A stretch of 60,979 nucleotides of DNA from a virus, in the IMG/VR virus record IMGVR_UViG_3300027904_000002, positions 1 to 60,979 of that record; one strand, written 5' to 3'. A program made the position numbers and the translations under genes. A model generated the notes under the pieces. It saw only the letters and a list, made by a program, of their open reading frames with translations. It did not search any database and had not been told where the DNA came from. This document shows positions 7,448 to 60,979 of the stretch, one piece after another. How positions within the stretch are numbered: the stretch's first letter is position 1; each line of letters opens with the position of its first letter.

Positions 7448-7684
7448 TTATTCTTCCTTTAATGTATCGTCAATATAGCTTCTATCTTTTCTGTTAAAAA
7501 AGTAACCAAACACCATTGTTGCAAACGGTACAAATATTTCAGACCCTATTCTCCCATCTATGAATCCCCAAAGCAAGCCGAAACATATTGCTAAAGATAT
7601 TATAGAGCGTACTTTCAATAACTCTATTATTTGATACCGTATGTGGTTTGTAAAAGTATATAAACATTTATGAATATTATTCAC
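7448..7684 (-). CDS. Putative holin (two TM segments, charged C-terminus)
   Basis: GTG 7684 lies 6 nt after SD ggagag. An alternative GTG at 7702 would overlap the REC gene. TM segments SIISLAICFGLLWGFIDG and IFVPFATMVFGYFF, then NRKDRSYIDDTLKEE. Its stop lies 1 nt before the lysin ATG. Confidence 0.6.
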   Translation of the reverse strand: MNNIHKCLYTFTNHIRYQIIELLKVRSIISLAICFGLLWGFIDGRIGSEIFVPFATMVFGYFFNRKDRSYIDDTLKEE

Positions 7685-15820: not shown

Positions 15821-18800
15821 GTTTTAAACACCACCTTACCCGCTTGTAAAGATGAATCGTTGATACCATTACGGATTATTCTAAGCAGTAACTTTTCGTT
15901 AAAGTACCCTGCCATTTCTTGATTCATTATAGCGTCAATCAATTCTTCAAGTAAACTATTTGTAGTTTGTTGTTCCGCATATAAATCATCAAGCCTTTTG
16001 CTGTCAAAATCAACTGCACCACCGTACTCGCCACCCATTGTTCGACCTTTTTCAACTAATGCACTTATCGTAGAACCGCTTATAAGCCCTCCTCTGGGCA
16101 TTTCGGGTAACTTGAGTTGAATATCGCTTATAGCTGTTAAAGCTTCGTACAGGCGATTTATTTCAACGAGAACATCATCTACAAAGCCTTTGAATAAATC
16201 ACGCCATGAATCAAGCATATGCTCTATAGCCATTATCGGTGAATCTTCTTCATCTTCCATGCCCTTAAACAAGCCTTGCATTAAAAATTGACCTATTTTA
16301 GCAAATACTACGGAGGGTGATTTTACACCGAATATGCCACTTACCGTATTAATAACAGAACTTGCTATATTGCTAACAACATTAAACACTGCACTTGCCA
16401 TGCTTGAAATACCGTTTGCTAATCCGCTCATTAAGTTAGAGCCGATTGTTTTCATGTTATTTACAAGACCGCTAAAGAAGTTTTGTACACTATTGCCTAT
16501 AGTTTGTGCAGCATTAACAACCGTTGATTTTGCTTTTGTCATTGCATTTGACATATTAGTAATTGTAGCTCTGCCAGTTTCAGTAAACCATTCTCTGGCA
16601 TTGCTAAATGCGTCTTTTACGTCATTCCAACGATTTGTAAAGAATTGTTTTGTGCCACTCCATGCTTTTTCAACACCATCTTTTGCACTTTTGAATTTAT
16701 CTGTAAACCATTCTCCGACATTTTTAAATACGTCTGTAATTCCATTCCAAATATCAGTAAACAATTTGATTACATTTTCTATTAATTTTGAAATACCCTC
16801 AAGCATACCCTCAATTATCCATCCACCAATTTCAGCCATTACAGTAGACGGTGATTTTATGCCAAATAAACCTTTTAAAGCGTCTATAATAGGAGCAAAT
16901 ATATTTTCTCTTATCCAAGTAAACGGATTCGGCATACCGTCTAAAATCCCACCAAATAATCCGTTGATTATATCCCACCCGATTTCCATAATTATAAACG
17001 GAAGCTCTAACATTGTTGTTACGATATAATCAACGATTCCTACTACGATTTTCCCTATGCCCTGCCATGCAGTTTCCCAATCGCCTGTAAATACACCGAC
17101 AAGAAAATCAATAATTCCACCTAAAAGATATAAAAATGGTTCAAGAATATCCATTATAAGATTAAATGCACCCTTTACAGCAGCAACGATACCTCTAAAT
17201 ACGCCTTTTACAACTTCCCATAAAACGTTAAGCACCATTTTTAAGTTTTCAAAATCAATAATCCCATCATCTATTGCTTTTTTTACAATCAGGAAAACAG
17301 CAACAATACCTGCGATTACAGCAATAATTTTAGCAAAAGGTATCAATAAAGCAATAGCACTTTTACCTAATAAAGCAAAAGCAAATCCCGTCAGAGCTGC
17401 TTTTGCTAATAGCGGAACTATAATACCTGCCAATAATCCAAATACAGTTACAGCAGTGCTTATTTTCATTATCAAACTTCCAATATCAACATCGTTTTCT
17501 TTTATCCACTCCGCTAATCTTTCAAATGCGTTTGCAATCCAATCTATTACAGCAGGTAGTGTTGTTTCAGCTAATTTTGTAAACATAGGCAATAAAGTAT
17601 TTTCCCATGCGTCAGCAAGGCTATCTAAAATAACAGTAGCCAATTTATTAAATGCTATAAGCAATCTTTCAACACTTTCCAATAATGGACTTGCATTAAG
17701 TGTTTTCGCCCATTCAGCAGTAGATTTTGTAATCCTGTCGATAAACCCTAATACTAAAAGCAATAAATCAAGGATATGCCCCCAAATTCTCACACCTAAT
17801 TCATTTTCATTCCACGCTACTCTAAATCGCTCAACCAAATTCTCAACAAAATTAGCAATATTTGTTATTATTTGAAGTATAAATGCAAATATACGCACAC
17901 CACGTTCATTTTCATTCCAAGCTTTAATAAACGCTTCACCTATATCGTTAGCAAATCCCAAGATAGAAGTCATTGCTCTTGTGATAGCCAAAAGCATGTT
18001 ATATCCTCTGTCGTTTTCATTCCAAGCTTTTCTAAATGCGTCACCTATATAATGAATCAAATCAGCAATCAATATCAATGTTCTTGCTACTTCATCTAAA
18101 AACTTATCCCAAGTAGCAGACGCAAATAGCCTTGCCAAATCATTCATAACGTCAATCAGTAAATCTCTTACTGTCGTCATTGCACGTTTCCAAGCTTCTA
18201 CAATAGCTTCACCGTGACGCTCCCACATGCGTACTAATGAGTTCCAAAATTCTTGAGCCATATTTTTTAATGCATCCCATAAAGGCTCAAGCCAATCTAA
18301 TAGCTTTTTAAACCATTCGGGAACTTCGGGTAATTCAAAATCAAAATCGGGAATCAAATCAGACATATCCGTATCTTCTGCTTTTGAACTAACTACAATC
18401 AATTCATCAAATGGTGCTAAAAATCGTTCTAATGCTTTTGCACCCGCTTTAGAAGCTTTAACATTTTCCCACATTGCTTTTGCGTTTTTCTTCATTATGT
18501 TAGGGTCTAATTTGAAAAAGTAAGAAGCCATTACAGCTAAATATTGCATTGCTTTAGCAAGTAAATTTACAAAGTGCAATAAAATAGGTACTATTACTTC
18601 AAAAAATGGTTGAAATGCGGTTAATGCAGAGCCTTTAAGCAATGCCAAAGCCGACCTAAATTCTGTTGTAACCATCAAGGCTTCATTTACATACCGCACA
18701 TATTCCCTTAGTTTTCTGCGTATTTGATTAAACACCATAGCAGTAACAGCTAAACCAATCAGACGAGCGTTTAGCTTGCCAAATGCACTATTTGCTTTAT

Positions 18801-53882: not shown

Positions 53883-55922
53883 CTAATCATCTAAAAAGGG
53901 TAATTTTATTTTTTCGTATACTTCGTAAAATTCTGAATCTTCCCAACCATACCGCTTATGCTCATGCTCATAGTTTTTTAACCGCTTTCCTTGATTGCAG
54001 TAATATAACGGTATAAACGTGTCCATTGTTCCCATTTCTCTATCTTTACATATCTCAATTACATTCGTTGCTGAATATAAATCATTGTTCTTTTCCCACT
54101 TATACATAGCATGAGATAATCTTTTAAAATCGTCATTTACTCTATGCACTATAAAAGCATTATCTACCCTGTTTGTAATATCACCACTTCCACCTACATC
54201 ATCTAATCTTAAAAATCCTAATGGTTTTCGTGGGTGTGCTACAAACAACGTATGAACATTCGATAATTTAGAATAGTCCATAAGCGTTTGAACAAACATA
54301 CTCTGCTGACGATATATTTCTTTTTCAAGCATTGAAATATCTAATGCCATTAAGTTATCTAATATTATAAAATCGACTTTATATTTTTCAACGCACTCTG
54401 CTAATCTATCAAATATTTTAGCAAAATCATTTCCGTGTGCATTATTATAAACATATATTTTATTGTTTAACCAATCTACTATTTTTTGATTAACTTCATC
54501 TTTTACCGTAAAAAAATTATCATATTGTGTTGGATTGACATGATACTTCCCTGCGGATTGAAGTTTTAACCATGATGATATTTTTTTAGTTTTTAACTCT
54601 CCGCTAAATATTGCAGTTCTATATCCCTGTTCTGCCGATTCAATAGCAAGTTGTCCTATCCACGTTGATTTGCCCGACCCTCTCAAGCCTGTTATGCACG
54701 TTACACAACCTTTTGCAAGTCCACCCATCTTTGTATCTATAACATCTGTTCCTGTCTTTATATACTCGTCTGGTGGTGTTACAAGTTCTTCTATCTGTTG
54801 CATTGTATAAAATACAGGCTCGTCATTTACATCTTGTACTATTTTCTGATTAACGATTTTAGGTGATGTGTGATTTTCGTTATTGCTATTTGACCCAAAA
54901 TTAAGTTTAACATATTTTTTATCAGAAAAATTAGGCTCATACATCGCTCTTAATTGTTGCCATTTGTTGTTAGCACATGAATTATGAAAACAAAAGAAAC
55001 CTATTGCACCATTATCATTTATCGTTACCATTGAATCCTTACCCTTATGTTCGGGATTGAATGGACAATGCTCTAAAATATATTTTGTATATCCACTTGC
55101 TGTAATTTCTTGCTTTACTCGTAGATGTTTTGCCATAAATTCATGGATATTAAATTGCTTATTATTATATCCGTTCCGAAAATTATTTATCTTTACTTCT
55201 GGCTCTGGCATTAGTGAAGCAAGTTCTTCCAATAGATGTTTTTTGTTTTGAATAATATTGTCGGGGATTTTTAAAACTTCGCTCATTCGGTGTGGTCGTT
55301 CTTCTGTATTATCACCTTTGCATGATTTAGTACCATAAAGTTTAAATATTCTCGATGGATTAGATGTTTTAACATCAATGTTTATGTGCTTATCGGAAAA
55401 TAACATGCTCAAAACTTTAAGACAATTTGAAACAAGTGTTGCGTTTTCTCTGCTATTTTCAAATCCTATAAGATATAGCAAGTGATAACCGTTTCCGCTC
55501 ATGGCAACTATCGGGTCGCTAAAACCATTTGCATACATAAAGTTTCTAACCTCATGTGCTTTATGCCTTGCCAAAAGCAATTCATCACTTGTAGATGATA
55601 CGTTTGTTGGTCTAACAGGGTCTACGTCTATTGGCAACCACTCATAATAATTTATATCATTATCTGATGTTGTCGGCTTTGCTCCACTTACAAATTTATT
55701 AAATTGTTTTCGCTCCTTGCACTTATCGTTAATATTATTAAGCGTAAAATAAATATTAGAATTATTAGGAAAACTATAATCTTTCAAACATTCGACCGCT
55801 GTTGTTATGCAATCAAAATATCCGCTTACAACTTTACCACCACCATATAATGCCCTAATTTCAAATAGCTTGTTATCTGGTTTTATGACTTCTAAAAAAG
55901 CATTTATAACATCAAACTTCAT
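53883..55922 (-). CDS. Bifunctional AEP-type primase plus RecA/DnaB-like helicase
   Basis: 679 aa. AEP motifs WLPIDVDPVRP, AMSGNGYHLLY and INIDVKTSNPSRIFKLYGT. Zn motif CPFNPEH...CFHNSC. Walker A GLRGSGKST and Walker B DFIILDNLMAL. Confidence 0.8.
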   Translation of the reverse strand: MKFDVINAFLEVIKPDNKLFEIRALYGGGKVVSGYFDCITTAVECLKDYSFPNNSNIYFTLNNINDKCKERKQFNKFVSGAKPTTSDNDINYYEWLPIDVDPVRPTNVSSTSDELLLARHKAHEVRNFMYANGFSDPIVAMSGNGYHLLYLIGFENSRENATLVSNCLKVLSMLFSDKHINIDVKTSNPSRIFKLYGTKSCKGDNTEERPHRMSEVLKIPDNIIQNKKHLLEELASLMPEPEVKINNFRNGYNNKQFNIHEFMAKHLRVKQEITASGYTKYILEHCPFNPEHKGKDSMVTINDNGAIGFFCFHNSCANNKWQQLRAMYEPNFSDKKYVKLNFGSNSNNENHTSPKIVNQKIVQDVNDEPVFYTMQQIEELVTPPDEYIKTGTDVIDTKMGGLAKGCVTCITGLRGSGKSTWIGQLAIESAEQGYRTAIFSGELKTKKISSWLKLQSAGKYHVNPTQYDNFFTVKDEVNQKIVDWLNNKIYVYNNAHGNDFAKIFDRLAECVEKYKVDFIILDNLMALDISMLEKEIYRQQSMFVQTLMDYSKLSNVHTLFVAHPRKPLGFLRLDDVGGSGDITNRVDNAFIVHRVNDDFKRLSHAMYKWEKNNDLYSATNVIEICKDREMGTMDTFIPLYYCNQGKRLKNYEHEHKRYGWEDSEFYEVYEKIKLPFLDD

Positions 55923-56659
55923 TTTTCAATAACCCTCAATATTGTACCATCATTATTGTAATGCACATCAATATACTCTTGTTCAACTTTATTTACTTCC
56001 ACTTCATCATCTAAATAGTTATTTATAACTTCATTAAAAAAGTTATCTCGTTTATGTAAATATTCTTTGGGTTGAGTTTCAAGATATTTTTTGCAAGCTG
56101 ATTCAACCCTATCATAACCATAATCATATAATTCTTCTTTGCGTTTTTTTGATACTTTACTTTTCCTATCATTAACGTGTGGTGGCAATAGTTTCCAAAT
56201 TTTTTCAAAAAGTTCGTCAATATAATTTATGCTATTCTTTTCTGCACTATTCTGTTCTATACTACTCTGCGTTAACTTTTGTTTAACTTCCGTTAAACTT
56301 TGGTTTAACTTTAGTTTAACCGCACTGGCACAATACTTCCCGTTGTCTATATGCACTAAAGATTGTTCTTCAAGATATTCTGTTGGTTGAATTTTATTTT
56401 TATCAATGTAATTATTTTTATGCCAATCTACTATTACAACTACTCCCGTTTCAAAAGGTATTACATATTCCTTTAGTATCAATAATTTTAAATCATCATC
56501 TGTTGCTCCGTGTGTTCGCATCACTCGTCTTGGTGAAACAAATCCATAATCATCAGCTTCCATTCCTAACAGAAAATATAAGGCTTTACTGCTCATTGGC
56601 ATATCGCAAAATTTATCTTTATTTACAATCTCCCTATCAAACATTCTTTTTCTTGCCAT
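55919..56659 (-). CDS. Phage replisome organizer (N-terminal domain type)
   Basis: MARKRMFDREIVNKDKFCDMPMSSKALYFLLGMEADDYGFV matches the replisome-organizer N-terminal pattern. Confidence 0.7.
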   Translation of the reverse strand: MARKRMFDREIVNKDKFCDMPMSSKALYFLLGMEADDYGFVSPRRVMRTHGATDDDLKLLILKEYVIPFETGVVVIVDWHKNNYIDKNKIQPTEYLEEQSLVHIDNGKYCASAVKLKLNQSLTEVKQKLTQSSIEQNSAEKNSINYIDELFEKIWKLLPPHVNDRKSKVSKKRKEELYDYGYDRVESACKKYLETQPKEYLHKRDNFFNEVINNYLDDEVEVNKVEQEYIDVHYNNDGTILRVIEK

Positions 56660-57713: not shown

Positions 57714-57914
57714 TTACTGATTGCCTTTAATGGTATCAATATTAAACGATTTAATAGATAACTTTATTTCAATATGAACATTAGCACCTGTGTTACCTAC
57801 GCTAATATATTCTATTCGGGAACAACTGTCATTTAAGTCTACTAACTCGCCGTCAACGTATAACCTGTTGTTTTCTAATTTGACTTCGGGTATTACTATT
57901 TTATTCTTTTGCAT
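57714..57914 (-). CDS. Hypothetical small protein
   Basis: 66-aa ORF. Confidence 0.6.
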   Translation of the reverse strand: MQKNKIVIPEVKLENNRLYVDGELVDLNDSCSRIEYISVGNTGANVHIEIKLSIKSFNIDTIKGNQ

Positions 57915-58192
57915 TAAAAATCAACCTCCATTATTTCAAACCACTTTTTATGTAAGTGATTGCGATTTAATTTTTCTTTATTAACAGCTTTTATTAAAAT
58001 ATCTAAACCATCTGTCATAACCTCAAGCGTATTCCATCTATTTTCGCAAGCAAGGCACTTTCGTCTGCGCCTTATACCCATACTGTTCCCCCTACTATCA
58101 AATACCATAATGTCTGTACTGCGACATTCGGGGCAACAAGGAAATGCGTGTTTATCACCCTTATTCCTGATTGTCCAACTGTTTTTATCCAT
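57914..58192 (-). CDS. NrdR-like zinc-ribbon protein lacking the ATP-cone
   Basis: CCPECRSTDIMVFDSRGNSMGIRRRRKCLACENRWNTLEV parallels the NrdR N-terminus (CPFC..dtkViDSR....vRRRReC..C..RftTfE). Only about 90 aa in total. Confidence 0.6.
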   Translation of the reverse strand: MDKNSWTIRNKGDKHAFPCCPECRSTDIMVFDSRGNSMGIRRRRKCLACENRWNTLEVMTDGLDILIKAVNKEKLNRNHLHKKWFEIMEVDF

Positions 58193-58197
58193 TGTCC

Positions 58198-58422
58198 TCA
58201 ATCCAAAAAGATAGAATCGTTATGCAAGTAATCATGATTTAAACTGCTGTCAACCATGCCCACTTTCCTGTCTGCTTTTTTCGCTTGCGGATATTGCTGT
58301 TTCGGATATGTAAAATTCCAGAATCCCGGCACTGGTTGTTTCAACCGCCTTGTGCAAATATGCGGTTTATCATCCTCATAGTGAATCGTTCCGCAAGTGT
58401 TACATAGAATTGCTGTCCTCAT
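58198..58422 (-). CDS. Small zinc-finger-like protein
   Basis: 74 aa. CNTCGTIHYEDDKPHIC. Confidence 0.6.
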   Translation of the reverse strand: MRTAILCNTCGTIHYEDDKPHICTRRLKQPVPGFWNFTYPKQQYPQAKKADRKVGMVDSSLNHDYLHNDSIFLD

Positions 58423-58448: not shown

Positions 58449-58604
58449 CTACATTTTCCACTTATCTTTGCCCTCGTTTCTGTCAATCCACTCTGTCAAT
58501 ATTGCAACGACAACATCTTGCACCCTACGACCTTTTTTATCAGCCTCGATTTTTATGCGTTCATATAGCTTTTTGGGAACGCTCGGTCTGTATGTATCAG
58601 CCAT
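58449..58604 (-). CDS. Ribbon-helix-helix (Arc/CopG-like) regulator, first gene of the early minus operon
   Basis: ATG 58604 follows ggtggtgaaaat. MADTYRPSVPKKLYERIKIEADKKGRRVQDVVVAILTEWI. Confidence 0.6.
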   Translation of the reverse strand: MADTYRPSVPKKLYERIKIEADKKGRRVQDVVVAILTEWIDRNEGKDKWKM

Positions 58605-58625
58605 ATTTTCACCACCTTTGCCATT

Positions 58626-58654
58626 ATGATACCACATCAAAAACAGTTTGTCAA
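58626..58654 (-). promoter_or_regulatory. Early leftward promoter
   Basis: On the minus strand: TTGACA (58654-58649), 17 nt, TATCAT (58631-58626). Confidence 0.6.
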
Positions 58655-58685
58655 CACTTTTGTCCAAAATAATACCAAAAACTTA

Positions 58686-58714
58686 TTGACTTATCCCGAA
58701 ACATCTGTTATTAT
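58686..58714 (+). promoter_or_regulatory. Divergent rightward promoter
   Basis: TTGACT (58686-58691), 17 nt, TATTAT (58709-58714). Confidence 0.65.
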
Positions 58715-58744: not shown

Positions 58745-59368
58745 ATGAGCAAAATGAAAACATTAAAATGTAGGGCAACACTTATGGAGGAAATGTTAGG
58801 CACGCAAGCTAACGACAAAGAAATACATGAGGAATATATCGCAAGTTTAGCACCTGACGCTCCGAGCAGAGAGGAAGAAGTGGCTGCAATCGGTGTTGAA
58901 GCAGAAGTAGAAAAATCAATGACAGTGTTTCCACGATTAAACGGTAAACCAGACGGACAACCGTTTATGTGGGATTATCAAATTAAAGGTTTTCTGAAAG
59001 AGTCCGCAAGAGCGATGGCAAGGGTAGGTGGCTCGGAAACATCAAAAACAAAAGCATACATTAAAATCATAAACGATTGTGTTTTTGTATATCCACGCAA
59101 AATACCATTATGCTATGAGGGTGCTGAACAAGGCATTGTAGGCAATATGCAAAGACCATTACGGGCGCAAACAGCACAAGGGGAGCGTGTGACGCTTGCT
59201 AATAGTGAAACAGTACCCGCAGGAACAACATTTGATTTTGAAATTAAAATGCTTGACGTTAAATTTGAAAAACTAATCCGTGAGTTGCTTGACTACGCTC
59301 AATACAAGGCTTTTTTACAGTGGCGTAACAGTGGTTATGGTCGTGCGGAAATAACTGTGCAAGATTAA
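58745..59368 (+). CDS. Orphan 207-aa protein of unknown function (weak RAMP-like motifs)
   Basis: The only plus-strand gene in this region. DGQPFMWDYQIKGFLKESARAM and C-terminal QWRNSGYGRAEITV are loosely reminiscent of the RAMP IKG..R and G-rich loop motifs. Confidence 0.7.
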   Translation: MSKMKTLKCRATLMEEMLGTQANDKEIHEEYIASLAPDAPSREEEVAAIGVEAEVEKSMTVFPRLNGKPDGQPFMWDYQIKGFLKESARAMARVGGSETSKTKAYIKIINDCVFVYPRKIPLCYEGAEQGIVGNMQRPLRAQTAQGERVTLANSETVPAGTTFDFEIKMLDVKFEKLIRELLDYAQYKAFLQWRNSGYGRAEITVQD

Positions 59369-60213
59369 ACGTGATTGTAAGGCGAAGCGTTTTAATTTGA
59401 GGTGTAGGTAAGGTAAGGTTTAGTGTCGTACAGTGGCGTGATTGTTCCGCAAGGTATTTTGCCGTAATGTTTGGGTGTAGTGACGTAAGGTATTGTGATG
59501 GTTTAGTGACATGCTGTACCTTGACGTAATGGCAAAGTGAGGTAAAGCAAAGTTGCGTCACGTGCTTTAAAGCAATGAAACGGTAGAGTAAAGTCTTGTG
59601 CCCTTGCGTATAGTTTTGGTGCGGTACAGTATATTTGTTTTTTTGTGGCGTAATGGTTAGGTACGATATTGTGTGTTTTGGTACTGTCTGATACGGTGAC
59701 GGCATGGTTCAATATGGTCTTGTACGGCTCTGTGGTGGTGAAGTCCAATAATGTGAAATACGGTCAAGTAGATGTACGGTAGTGTGGGATAGGGTTGAAT
59801 GTTGTCAAGGTTTTGTGATGAACAGCGATATTGTGCTTTGGTTTCGTTATAGTTTAGTTCAGTTAAGTGAATTAAAGTGCAGTAAAGGTAAGGTCGTGCA
59901 TCGCAAAATGAGGTAGCTTAATGGTGCAGTAGGGTCAAGTTTCGTGGGGTTTAGTATTGGTAAGGTGAGGTGGGGTGTAGTGACGTGGTTTGCTGTAATG
60001 GTACAGTTCGGTTAAGTCACATATTGTTTCGTTACGGTTTGGCATGGTTGAGTCTGCTGTTGTAAATGTCATGTCTCGTGAGACATAGTATAGGTTTGGT
60101 GGAGTAGAGTCATATGTTGTTTTGGCGAAGTGAGGTTGTGAAAGTTGTATAAAGTGATGGTATGGCAATGTGAAATGCAATAGAGTAGAATGATGTATAT
60201 TTTTGTATAACAC
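59369..60213 (+). other. ~845-bp non-coding, GT-rich/C-poor strand-asymmetric tract with dispersed short repeats
   Basis: Hand counts over three 60-nt lines (59401, 59701, 59941) give C = 6, 8, 3 and G = 21, 18, 26. The exact 14-mer gggtgtagtgacgt occurs at 59473 and 59973. ggcatggtt occurs at 59701 and 60041. ggtttagt occurs at 59417, 59500 and 59948. A palindrome atgtctcgtgagacat lies at 60071-60086. Confidence 0.7.
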
Positions 60214-60239
60214 AAAAACCCCTCGCTTTAGAGGGGTTT
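60214..60239 (-). terminator. Rho-independent terminator (hairpin is usable in both directions)
   Basis: aaaaacccctc-gcttta-gaggggttt. On the minus strand it follows the stop of 60238..60612 and is followed by tttttgtgtt. Confidence 0.8.
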
Positions 60240-60612
60240 ACTTAATTTTACTATAAAGATTAGCAATCCAATCTTTTAAAATGTTTTTTTCGTCAACATC
60301 AGCACCTTGACGCAAAACATCTATCAATTCTGACAAACGGTGTAAAACCGCCTTAAAATCGCCTACATCAGCTTTTTCGTTTCGGAGTATAGATTGCCGC
60401 TTGCTATCCGCATAATCGCAAATAACCGCATTAAAATGAGCCATAAGCTGTTCAAGGTGGTCGTCAGTATCAACAACCGAGATTTGCTCGATAGTTGGCA
60501 ATTTTTCTTTTAGCAATAGCAAATGTGCGAGGTCGCTTGATAACGCCAAAGTTGGCGGTTGCTCAAGTATAAAATTTACTTGTTCATCTATTGCGGTCAG
60601 CCATTCTTGCAT
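60238..60612 (-). CDS. Hypothetical acidic helical protein
   Basis: 124-aa ORF. Confidence 0.65.
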   Translation of the reverse strand: MQEWLTAIDEQVNFILEQPPTLALSSDLAHLLLLKEKLPTIEQISVVDTDDHLEQLMAHFNAVICDYADSKRQSILRNEKADVGDFKAVLHRLSELIDVLRQGADVDEKNILKDWIANLYSKIK

Positions 60613-60736
60613 AAATTATCCATTTCGCAATCAGCAGAATTAAAACCAAAAGTCCGTAGACCAAAATAACGACATTAAAAAGTCCAAAGTTTGACAACCA
60701 AACATTTTCAATCCACAATGCTGGTGTTGTGAACAT
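60584..60736 (-). CDS. Small single-TM protein
   Basis: ATG 60736 follows aaaggac. FGLFNVVILVYGLLVLILLIAKWII. Confidence 0.55.
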   Translation of the reverse strand: MFTTPALWIENVWLSNFGLFNVVILVYGLLVLILLIAKWIIYARMADRNR

Positions 60737-60979
60737 AGTAAAGTCCTTTCTTAGAGTCACTAACGTCACTATTCATGTGATGACCCAAATACGGGGAGTG
60801 AAGTTTTGATATTAAAAACCTATAACGCTCCGTTAAGGTATCGTTATCGTGCAACACCTGTTCAAGCGACCAATCCACCGCATTATAAGCAAGTATCATG
60901 TCTGTCAAGTGTCGCAATTCAGCGTGAGTTTCTAAACACAATTCCTTAATATAGTCATAAGATATAACATCACCGTCAC
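60708..60979 (-). CDS. 3' part of the junction-spanning gene (see 1..485)
   Basis: The frame is open from the window end down to the stop at 60708-60710. 60853..60979 duplicates 1..127. Confidence 0.7.
   Translation of the reverse strand, partial: DGDVISYDYIKELCLETHAELRHLTDMILAYNAVDWSLEQVLHDNDTLTERYRFLISKLHSPYLGHHMNSDVSDSKKGLYYVHNTSIVD
60853..60979. repeat. Terminal direct repeat copy 2
   Basis: Identical to 1..127. Confidence 0.95.

What the first reader, a model, noticed from the sequence alone, without database searches (positions are those of the whole stretch)
59369..60213. ~845-bp strongly strand-asymmetric (G+T-rich, C-starved) non-coding tract with dispersed short repeats
The plus strand here is about 35-43% G and only 5-13% C. 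My hand counts over three 60-nt lines gave C = 6, 8, 3 and G = 21, 18, 26, unlike anything else in the genome.
- Plus-strand frames are full of stops. The minus-strand ORFs (148, 81 and 92 aa) are Thr/Pro/His/Tyr low-complexity artefacts of the skew.
- The tract is not a tandem array but is peppered with recurring words. The 14-mer gggtgtagtgacgt occurs at 59473 and 59973, exactly 500 bp apart. ggcatggtt occurs at 59701 and 60041. ggtttagt occurs three times, gtaatg five times, tacggt five times, and AGGT about 15 times (aaggt/gaggt are SD-like).
- It also holds a 16-bp palindrome, atgtctcgtgagacat (60071-60086).
- It lies downstream of the rightward early promoter with no terminator before 60214.

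It would therefore be transcribed as a long G/U-rich RNA, and a G-rich transcript over a C-rich template favours R-loops. Candidate roles are a transcription-primed replication origin, a protein- or ribosome-sponging RNA, a decoy for a host defence, or a substrate of the adjacent orphan protein. I know of no described element matching this.
Basis: partly seen in the sequence, partly recalled or inferred. Interest (0 to 1): 0.8.

Follow-up and report, generated by a model that had tools for sequence, protein, structure and literature searches.

The report
Phage VIPR guide-RNA repeat array
The odd G+T-rich stretch is a long array of degenerate 5-base repeats that, with the Cas7-like gene just upstream, forms a VIPR system, a CRISPR-like RNA-guided DNA-silencing device of phages first described in 2026 preprints.

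Summary
The G+T-rich, C-poor tract at 59369-60213 is real and is the most skewed 845 bases in the window. It is a degenerate tandem array of about 163 units, NNNGT, with G-T falling on a lattice of 5.16 nt. The Fourier power is 61.8, against at most 12.4 in shuffles. The extra 0.16 nt comes from a 6-nt unit (NNNGGT) every 6-7 units.

The upstream "orphan" ORF (58745-59368) is a stand-alone Cas7-like RAMP. Its AF2 model has pLDDT 89, and Foldseek matches type VII Cas7 and Csm3 at E 1e-8. Homologues in more than 80 unrelated phage contexts nearly all carry the same periodic array directly beside the gene.

This matches VIPR (Vipr protein plus vrRNA of GGY/NN pentanucleotide repeats), described in two 2026 bioRxiv preprints. 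There, one protomer binds each repeat and the NN bases read DNA, skipping one base in three.

This locus is a new member with a variant architecture:
- the first G of the repeat is relaxed, and the residues that contact it are replaced;
- there is no 3' tail;
- no accessory gene was found;
- the array is punctuated into modules.

The R-loop origin idea is not supported. Targets remain unproven.

The parts
58686..58714 (+). Sigma-70-like promoter (TTGACT, 17-nt spacer, TATTAT with a TG extension). It probably drives the vipr gene and the array. It is divergent from the promoter of the Arc-like repressor gene at 58626-58654 (minus strand).
   Evidence: Consensus scan, 10 of 12 matches. This is a sequence match only; transcription was not measured.
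58745..59368 (+). vipr gene: a stand-alone Cas7-like RAMP protein of 207 aa (204 aa if translation starts at the ATG at 58754). It has an RRM core, a helical insertion, a thumb beta-hairpin (residues 133-157, with invariant R137) and a C-terminal glycine-rich loop GxGQWRNxGxGR.
   Evidence: - No Pfam, PHROG or PDB sequence hit with the single sequence.
- 5049 homologues, in 1551 clusters at 50% identity.
- The family profile hits type VII Cas7 at E 2.6e-5, and Csm4.
- The AF2 model has pLDDT 89 and pTM 0.84.
- Foldseek top hits are type VII Cas7 and Csm3, at E 1e-8 and TM about 0.6.
- A BFVD homologue is named a RAMP superfamily protein.
- hhalign against the SUSP1 Vipr family gives probability 80% and E 1.3e-5 over the full length.
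59369..60213 (+). vrRNA array of about 163 degenerate units. The units are 138 pentamers NNNG(T/C), 24 hexamers (mostly NNNGGT) recurring every 6-7 units, and 1 tetramer. In VIPR notation each unit is N4 N5 | x G2 Y3.
   Evidence: - Spacing, autocorrelation and Fourier analysis and the parse.
- The same period, 5.12-5.18 nt, beside homologous genes in other phages.
- The G position is conserved while the NNN positions vary between near-identical relatives.
- The RNA fold is no more stable than shuffles, z = -0.63.
- No Rfam family matches.
60216..60239 (.). Bidirectional hairpin terminator (AAACCCCTC-6 nt-GAGGGGTTT). It closes the array transcript and also the convergent gene at 60238-60612 (minus strand).
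   Evidence: Terminator scan on both strands. The T-run is better on the minus strand.

Best explanation
The tract is the guide-RNA array of a VIPR (Viral Interference Programmable Repeat) system, and the upstream ORF is its Vipr protein.

Shown here:
- The ORF is a stand-alone Cas7-like RAMP.
- The tract is a long pentanucleotide repeat array on the same strand, with a conserved G-pyrimidine and variable other positions.
- Gene and array travel together in many unrelated phages.

Taken from the two preprints, for the experimentally studied SUSP1 and P. fulva systems:
- One Vipr protomer binds each 5-nt repeat.
- Protomers polymerise into a right-handed helical filament.
- The filament flips out and holds the GGY bases and presents the two N bases.
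- The N bases pair with double-stranded DNA while skipping every third target base.
- This silences transcription of competing phages.

Inferred for this locus:
- Gene and array are co-transcribed from the promoter at 58686-58714 to the hairpin at 60216-60239.
- The conserved G-T of each unit is G2-Y3.
- The first G slot is relaxed because the two residues that read it in SUSP1 (H17, D177) are replaced here by T20 and Q192.
- The first two bases of each unit are the guide.
- The regular hexamers divide the array into modules of about 26-36 nt.
For: Protein:
- Cas7/Csm3 fold, from an AF2 model with pLDDT 89.
- Profile hit to type VII Cas7.
- Full-length profile-profile match to the SUSP1 Vipr family: probability 80%, E 1.3e-5, with the G-loop aligned as GlGDWRPRFGRF against GlgQWRNsGxGRF.

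RNA side:
- 5.16-nt lattice, 113 of 163 units ending in GT.
- The preprint lists YNNNG as an alternative vrRNA repeat.
- The SUSP1 vrRNAs I read directly are GGT/NN repeats.

Linkage:
- All 4 closer relatives examined, in different gene contexts, and nearly all of the IMG/VR loci show the same period directly beside the gene. 63 of 82 scored loci (80 from the alignment scan plus L002 and L003) have power of at least 15, and 81 of 82 have their peak within about 1.3 kb of the gene.

Guide-like evolution:
- Arrays diverge and gain or lose sequence while the vipr genes stay 97-100% identical.
- Mismatch rates by unit position are .115.142.115.033 and .109.

Consistent residue and RNA changes:
- The G1 contacts are replaced and G1 is not conserved.
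- The G2 and Y3 contacts (W193, R194, and R137 in an RP(L/I) motif) are kept, and G-Y is conserved.

Other:
- No CRISPR array in the window and no Rfam family, including CRISPR direct-repeat and hammerhead models.
- Only under the published one-base-skip code do array units 15-22 match the phage's own tape-measure gene 8 units out of 8, in frame. Shuffle probability is 0.017.
Against: - Homology to an experimentally characterised Vipr is remote (probability 80%, 12% identity).
- The published vrRNA anatomy of 9-16 repeats followed by a conserved structured 3' tail is not met. This array is one uninterrupted run of 163 units with no tail.
- No accessory (vap) gene is conserved next to this clade.
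- No convincing natural target was found. The IMG/VR scan gave only chance-level extensions. The self-matches are statistically modest, and the preprint reports no self-targeting.
- The similarity of the guide dinucleotides to codon positions 1-2 (r = 0.91 in the window) did not clearly replicate across the clade (r = 0.70, against 0.82 for bulk dinucleotides).
- Expression, processing and RNP formation are untested.
- The literature basis is two unreviewed preprints whose figures and supplementary data I could not see.
Confidence: 0.85

Rival explanations
1. The Cas7-like protein coats its own long G/U-rich RNA, but the resulting filament is not a DNA-targeting guide. It would instead act as a decoy or sponge, for example titrating host type III or type I CRISPR subunits or another RNA-binding defence factor, or as a structural ribonucleoprotein.
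For: - Arrays are far longer than any published vrRNA: 845 nt here and up to 1.9 kb in L031.
- There is no 3' tail and no accessory DNA-binding or nuclease gene.
- G1 recognition is relaxed.
- No convincing target was found.
Against: - The variable positions carry no information, and they turn over quickly between near-identical relatives while G is held fixed. That is expected for guides, not for a sponge, which needs only the bound motif.
- Only the published skip-1 code gave better-than-shuffle matches.
- The family is homologous to a protein shown experimentally to guide DNA binding.
Confidence: 0.08
2. The G-rich transcript forms a persistent R-loop on the C-rich template and primes replication, or otherwise acts as an origin.
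For: - Strong G over C on the non-template strand downstream of a promoter.
- The tract lies about 2.7 kb from the replication genes.
Against: - In relatives the tract accompanies the RAMP gene in lysis, packaging, methylase and other contexts, upstream or downstream of it, and is not linked to replication genes.
- R-loop formation does not explain a 5.16-nt lattice with one conserved G per unit.
- G runs are few.
- The window has iterons at 56228-56320 inside the DnaD-like loader gene, a conventional origin position.
Confidence: 0.03
3. The tract has no function of its own. It would be a mutationally skewed spacer, or it would encode one of the minus-strand ORFs (148, 81 or 92 aa).
For: - Open minus-strand frames exist.
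- One of them is even called as a gene on the twin contig.
Against: - The periodicity is 5.16 nt, not 3 (power 2.0 at period 3.00).
- The 148-aa ORF overlaps the 3' end of the vipr gene by 110 nt.
- A strand with 10% G has few stop codons by chance.
- The lattice and the punctuation motif are conserved across more than 80 loci with otherwise unalignable sequence.
Confidence: 0.02

Closest known systems
VIPR type II systems (Escherichia phage SUSP1, Pseudomonas fulva prophage). Sources: bioRxiv 10.64898/2026.04.26.720920 and 10.64898/2026.04.26.720927.
   Same: - A small single-RRM RAMP with a thumb and a G-loop.
- The gene is flanked, on the same strand, by pentanucleotide-repeat RNA with a conserved G-pyrimidine and variable bases.
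- Phage-encoded, with no CRISPR array and no cas operon.
- The G-loop W-R and the thumb R-P motifs are shared.
   Different: - SUSP1 vrRNAs have about 13-17 strict GGY/NN repeats with no hexamers, each followed by a hairpin or pseudoknot tail and separated by leaders.
- Here there are 163 contiguous units and the first G is relaxed (xGY).
- A hexamer recurs every 6-7 units, giving a 5.16-nt lattice.
- There is no tail, and no vap gene was found.
- The G1-contact residues H17 and D177 are replaced by T and Q.
- Protein identity is only about 12-22%.
Other VIPR array architectures named in the preprint: YNNNG, NNNGG and NNNNG repeats, and the "staggered arrays with overlapping vrRNAs" of its fig. 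S18.
   Same: - The repeat here fits YNNNG.
- A contiguous array whose register shifts by 1 nt at regular intervals could be what the authors call staggered.
   Different: - I could not see the figure or the type table, so this equivalence is unverified.
- The text does not mention the 26-36-nt module lengths, the ..GC|AANGGC|ANNGC punctuation or kilobase-long arrays.
Class 1 CRISPR backbone: Cas7 (Csm3, Cmr4, type VII Cas7) on crRNA.
   Same: - The fold is the same (Foldseek E 1e-8, TM about 0.6).
- The logic is the same: a protomer per short RNA segment, with a thumb that flips bases out.
   Different: - Cas7 filaments use a 6-nt register with one flipped base; here the register is 5 nt with two or three sequestered bases.
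- There are no repeat-spacer units of about 60-70 nt, no Cas5, Cas6, Cas10 or Cas11, and no adaptation genes.
- Here the protein is a single stand-alone gene.
TRAP and its (G/U)AG-NN repeat RNA. This is an analogy only, and it rests on my own knowledge.
   Same: An oligomeric protein reads a short conserved motif that recurs every 5-6 nt in an otherwise variable, unstructured RNA.
   Different: The fold is unrelated, TRAP is a closed 11-mer ring, its role is regulatory attenuation, and it does not guide binding to DNA.

Membership tests
VIPR (Vipr protein + vrRNA) | The protein is a minimal RAMP of about 20 kDa: a single RRM core, a thumb hairpin and a glycine-rich loop. | tested here: met
   - 207 aa.
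- The AF2 model (pLDDT 89) shows a beta-alpha-beta core, a helical insertion at residues 25-47, a hairpin at 133-157 and a C-terminal G-loop.
- Foldseek top hits are Cas7 and Csm3.
- G-loop motif GxGQWRNxGxG.
VIPR (Vipr protein + vrRNA) | Sequence homology to an experimentally characterised Vipr (SUSP1). | tested here: met
   - hhalign of the two family profiles gives probability 80%, E 1.3e-5 and 186 aligned columns over the full length.
- The family profile against the single SUSP1 sequence gives probability 76% and E 2.2e-5.
- The homology is remote. tblastn does not connect the two.
VIPR (Vipr protein + vrRNA) | Tandem pentanucleotide repeats (GGY/NN, or the related YNNNG, NNNGG or NNNNG) flank the gene on its own strand. 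| tested here: met
   - 138 pentamers and 24 hexamers; 113 of 163 units end in GT.
- Period 5.16 nt with power 61.8.
- The same arrangement in more than 80 related loci.
VIPR (Vipr protein + vrRNA) | The motif positions are conserved while the guide positions are hypervariable. | tested here: met
   - Between relatives whose vipr genes are mostly 96-100% identical, mismatch rates by unit position are .115.142.115.033 (G) and .109.
- Information content is about 0 at the NNN positions and 1.3-2.0 bits at G.
VIPR (Vipr protein + vrRNA) | Each vrRNA has 9-16 repeats capped by a conserved structured 3' tail (the type II anatomy). | tested here: not met
   - One uninterrupted run of 163 units ends at a terminator hairpin.
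- No recurring tail was found.
- The fold z-score is -0.63.
- No ribozyme or other Rfam match.
- The preprint states that other architectures exist, so this excludes type II anatomy, not VIPR membership.
VIPR (Vipr protein + vrRNA) | An accessory vap gene lies next to vipr. The preprint calls this typical, not universal. | tested here: inconclusive
   - Clustering of neighbouring ORFs across 76 loci found no gene shared by more than 33 loci, and none shared with the window other than a probable array artefact.
- The window's neighbours are an Arc-like repressor and an unannotated 124-aa ORF.
VIPR (Vipr protein + vrRNA) | The locus is not part of a CRISPR-Cas locus. | tested here: met
   - No CRISPR-like tandem array and no Rfam CRISPR repeat in the 61-kb window.
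- The neighbouring genes are phage replication, regulation and structural genes.
- Not every ORF in the window was scanned for cas domains.
VIPR (Vipr protein + vrRNA) | The vrRNA is expressed, co-purifies with Vipr and directs DNA binding with a one-base skip. | not testable with these tools
   - There is only indirect in-silico support.
- The skip-1 code alone gives an 8/8-unit in-frame match in the phage's own tape-measure gene (P = 0.017).
- The database scan for targets was inconclusive.
CRISPR-Cas (class 1) | A repeat-spacer array and a multi-gene cas effector or adaptation module. | tested here: not met
   There are no repeats of 25-40 nt separated by spacers. A single RAMP gene is present. 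The register is 5 nt, not 6.
Transcription-primed (R-loop) replication origin | Conserved linkage to the replication module, or origin activity. | tested here: not met
   The tract is linked to the RAMP gene in non-replication contexts. Origin activity itself cannot be tested here.

The most novel reading that the evidence does not exclude
In this very large, mostly gut-phage clade of Vipr proteins the array would not be a string of about 100-nt vrRNAs. It would be a continuous lattice punctuated every 5-7 units by a conserved motif (..GC|AANGGC|ANNGC; AATGGT-like in this phage).

The resulting 26-36-nt modules correspond to about one helical turn of the published filament, and they have the length of a CRISPR spacer. 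That would be a proto repeat-spacer organisation, intermediate between VIPR and CRISPR arrays.

In addition, some modules of this phage would match its own late genes (the tape-measure ORF and the region upstream of the endolysin gene). VIPR would then silence superinfecting kin, or the phage's own late genes, rather than only unrelated competitors.
Probability: 0.2. Interest if true: 0.75.

Novelty: new member of a known kind. Interest (0 to 1): 0.55.

Why it matters
VIPR is a newly reported way to recognise DNA with RNA, and it is proposed as the ancestor of the CRISPR RAMP proteins. So far it rests on two preprints and a few model systems.

This locus shows several things:
- The clade around ORF207 is very large: 5049 protein clusters at 90% identity and 1551 at 50%.
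- The clade is invisible to Pfam, PHROGs and Tandem Repeats Finder.
- It can be found with a simple spectral test, a peak at about 5.16 nt next to a 200-aa RAMP gene.

The locus also offers a natural experiment on the recognition code. The residues that read the first G are replaced, and that base is no longer conserved in the RNA. The regular hexamer punctuation raises a concrete question about how long arrays are measured or processed.

In practical terms, the minus-strand "genes" called in such tracts in public annotation are artefacts.

Tried and rejected
- DNA similarity to GenBank phages for the locus and for a 10-kb structural block: no match.
- Rfam at permissive and gathering thresholds: nothing relevant. 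tRNA scan: none.
- Single-sequence searches of ORF207 against Pfam, PHROGs, NCBIfam and PDB: nothing. PADLOC gave only weak Cas7, Csm4 and Cas6 tails.
- Half-turn-of-DNA idea. I considered that 2 x 5.16 = 10.3 nt reflects the DNA helical repeat. I set it aside once the hexamers proved to be a discrete conserved motif, not drift, and the protein proved to be an RNA-binding RAMP.
- Hexameric-ring idea (31 nt per ring). The module lengths are a mixture of 26, 31 and 36 nt, not a fixed 31.
Host taxa were therefore not obtained.
- Target search by contiguous read-out of NN, NNN or all variable bases: no better than shuffles. An earlier version of that script timed out.
- Target search with skip rules of 0, 2 and 3 bases: no 8-unit match.
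- IMG/VR scan with the 8-unit skip-1 pattern: more than 118 hits. The best extensions were 11 of 13 units in L113, L140 and L152, and 11 consecutive units in L199. These are within what AT-rich chance allows, and those contigs share no protein with the window.
- Guide dinucleotides against codon positions 1-2: r = 0.91 in the window, but the clade replicate was weaker than the bulk-dinucleotide control. I count this as suggestive only.
- Search for a conserved vap-like neighbour: none found.
- Search for a conserved leader or tail at the array ends: L005 and L011 share a leader that the window lacks.
Full report
**1. The observation**

The tract 59369-60213 has A .241, C .101, G .312 and T .346. 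Its GC skew is +0.52, the most extreme of any 845-nt window in the 60,979-nt sequence, where the mean is -0.08 and the sd 0.14.

- It lies between a plus-strand ORF (58745-59368) and a hairpin terminator (60216-39). A sigma-70-like promoter sits at 58686-58714.
- Repeated 8-12-mers exceed dinucleotide-preserving shuffles only modestly.
- The minus-strand ORFs exist, but they are what a strand with 10% G produces by chance.

**2.

On reading the relatives' tracts I saw strings such as tgagt tgagt acagt acagt taagt, and tested for periodicity.

- In the window, successive GT dinucleotides are 5 nt apart in 41% of cases, against 10% in shuffles.
- The autocorrelation stays high out to more than 250 nt, at lags of 5, 10, 15/16, 21, 26, 31, 36 and so on.
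- The Fourier spectrum has one sharp peak at 5.16 nt with power 61.8. There is no power at 5.00 or 5.25, and only 2.0 at period 3.00. Three hundred shuffles give a mean of 6.2 and a maximum of 12.4.
- No other place in the window shows this signal.
- A dynamic-programming parse gives 163 units: 138 pentamers NNNGT, 24 hexamers (17 of them NNNGGY) and one tetramer. 113 units end in GT, and most of the rest end in GC or AT.
- The hexamers are regularly spaced. The gaps are 7 6 5 6 10 7 3 4 9 7 7 7 6 2 7 7 7 8 7 6 5 6 4 3 units. This regularity is why the lattice stays coherent at 5.16 rather than 5.00.
- Tandem Repeats Finder does not report the array.

**3. The neighbouring protein**

ORF207 has no hit in Pfam, PHROGs or NCBIfam, and none in PDB by single-sequence search. 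It nevertheless has 5049 homologues at the 90% cluster level and 1551 clusters at 50%.

- The consensus ends in GxGQWRNxGxGRF, which looks like a RAMP glycine-rich loop.
- A profile of 68 members hits the 200-aa Cas7 of type VII CRISPR-Cas (E 2.6e-5) and Csm4.
- The AlphaFold model is confident, with pLDDT 89 and pTM 0.84.
- Its 179 significant Foldseek matches in the PDB are led by type VII Cas7 and type III Csm3, at E 1e-8 and TM about 0.6.
- In BFVD the nearest model is a gut siphovirus protein named a RAMP superfamily protein.
- The window has no CRISPR-like array and no Rfam CRISPR repeat family.

**4. Gene and array travel together**

The closer homologues (75-82% identity) sit in quite different contexts:
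- after a ClpP-like gene and before a methylase;
- between lysins and a ParB-like gene;
- in a divergent pair;
- before an HTH gene.

Each is followed by 300-750 nt of G-rich, C-poor sequence with the same 5.12-5.18-nt period.

I then scored 82 loci: 80 IMG/VR loci with 48-77% identical proteins, plus L002 and L003.
- 63 have a period-5.1-5.2 peak of power at least 15. In the window, no 400-nt segment clear of the tract and its flank exceeded 8.9 on this strand.
- In 81 of 82 the peak lies directly upstream or downstream of the gene. It is on the gene's strand in most of them; about a quarter scored slightly higher with the complementary motif, which is ambiguous where units end in GC.
- Arrays range from 200 to 1940 nt.

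**5. Identification**

A literature search for Cas7, pentanucleotide and phage returned a Doudna-laboratory preprint, and a second search returned its structural companion. The identifiers are bioRxiv 10.64898/2026.04.26.720920 and 10.64898/2026.04.26.720927.

They describe VIPR systems as follows:
- A phage-encoded minimal RAMP of about 20 kDa (Vipr) is paired with vrRNAs made of 9-16 YNNGG (GGY/NN) pentanucleotide repeats and a 3' tail.
- One protomer binds each repeat, in a right-handed helix. It has six subunits per turn when free and five per turn when on DNA.
- The GGY bases are flipped out and held. G1 is read by H17 and D177, G2 by R138 and W178, and Y3 by a pocket that includes R179.
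- The NN bases pair with DNA while skipping every third target base.
- The system silences competing phages.
- There are seven types. Alternative repeats (NNNGG, YNNNG, NNNNG), "staggered" arrays and ribozyme-separated arrays are mentioned.

I fetched phage SUSP1 (KT454805) and found its locus at 27.5-29.5 kb. Its vrRNAs read as strict GGT/NN repeats followed by hairpin tails.

A profile of the SUSP1 Vipr family aligns with the ORF207 family over the full length, at probability 80% and E 1.3e-5. The G-loops are superposed.

**6. Fit and misfit**

The unit here, N N x G Y, is the YNNNG variant.

The alignment gives a coherent picture. It is an inference from a remote alignment.
- Both G1-reading residues are replaced: H17 by T20 and D177 by Q192. 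G1 is also the one motif base that is not conserved in these arrays.
- W193, R194 and the invariant R137 (in an RP(L/I) thumb motif, as in SUSP1 R138-P139) are kept. G2-Y3 are the conserved bases.

Among relatives whose vipr genes are 97-100% identical, the arrays differ by substitutions and indels. Mismatches avoid the G position: the rate is .033, against .11-.14 at the other positions. The RNA is predicted to be no more structured than shuffles, with z = -0.63.

What does not fit the published type II anatomy:
- there is no tail;
- there are no separate units of about 100 nt;
- no conserved accessory gene was found.

**7. A feature I could not find in the preprint text**

Across 82 arrays the hexamers recur every 5, 6 or 7 units in 652 of 1025 gaps. 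The sd is 2.5, against 5.4 for random placement.

- The hexamers have their own consensus, AANGGC. They are preceded by a strongly conserved GC and followed by ANNGC.
- Modules are mainly 26, 31 and 36 nt long. The central units carry no information at NNN.
- This may be the "staggered array" of the preprint's fig. S18, which I could not view.

**8. Targets**

- With the published one-base-skip code, array units 15-22 match the phage's own tape-measure gene (17840-17862, minus strand) at 8 of 8 units. The match is in frame, with the skipped base at the wobble position.
- A 7-unit match lies 60-80 nt upstream of the endolysin gene.
- In shuffles of unit order, P = 0.017 for any 8-unit match and P = 0.006 for three 7-unit words.
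- Skip rules of 0, 2 and 3 bases gave no 8-unit match.
- This is a lead, not a result. An IMG/VR scan with the 8-unit pattern gave only chance-level extensions.
- Contiguous read-outs gave nothing.
- The codon-like composition of the guide dinucleotides (r = 0.91) did not clearly replicate across the clade.

**9. Verdict**

- The tract is a pentanucleotide repeat array, not an aperiodic skewed spacer.
- The R-loop origin reading is not supported.
- It is a VIPR locus: a new member of a kind known since 2026 from preprints, with a variant repeat and a variant array architecture.

Noticed in passing
window 56228-56320: Tandem 11/22-nt iterons (TTAACTTTAGT, about 4.5 copies) lie inside the DnaD-like helicase-loader gene (55919-56659, minus strand), next to the DnaB-like helicase gene. 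This is a conventional candidate for the phage replication origin.
   Followed up: partly
window 17840-17862 (-) and 7506-7525 (-): Under the one-base-skip code the phage's own array matches its own genome in two places. One is its tape-measure gene: 8 of 8 units, in frame, on the sense strand. The other is a site 60-80 nt upstream of its endolysin gene: 7 of 7 units. Shuffle P is 0.017 and 0.006. This could reflect targeting of kin phages or self-regulation.
   Followed up: partly
L010 4506-4952 (-), which equals window 59259-59705 (-): The public gene call on the twin contig annotates the 148-aa minus-strand ORF inside the array as a gene. It is an artefact of the G-poor strand and overlaps the 3' end of vipr.
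   Followed up: yes
window 60708-60979 joined to 1-2272: The window appears to be a circularly permuted complete phage genome. On the twin 61,331-bp contig, the gene order at the window's end continues into the window's start: a 209-aa ORF, a 243-aa ORF and an AntA-domain gene.
   Followed up: no
L031 1100-3040 and 3590-4750 (IMGVR_UViG_3300035130_000336): One vipr homologue is flanked by more than 3 kb of periodic array, upstream and downstream. This was the longest case seen.
   Followed up: no
L005 5622-5680 and L011 2554-2595: The two relatives share a leader of about 45 nt between the stop codon and the array (GGCRCGGCTRCRTGGGKCGAAAGMTRCACCGTGATAATG), with paired base changes. The window lacks it.
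   Followed up: no
window 59316-59325 and 59429-59438: The word ACAGTGGCGT occurs twice: inside the vipr ORF, where it encodes the G-loop residues Q-W-R, and again in the array (family D5). It may be coincidence, since the word happens to fit the NNNGT pattern.
   Followed up: no
window 58449-58667 (-) and 57914-58201 (-): An Arc-like ribbon-helix-helix repressor gene is divergent from vipr, and an NrdR-type zinc-ribbon ORF lies further left. VIPR therefore sits at the regulatory early region of this phage.
   Followed up: no
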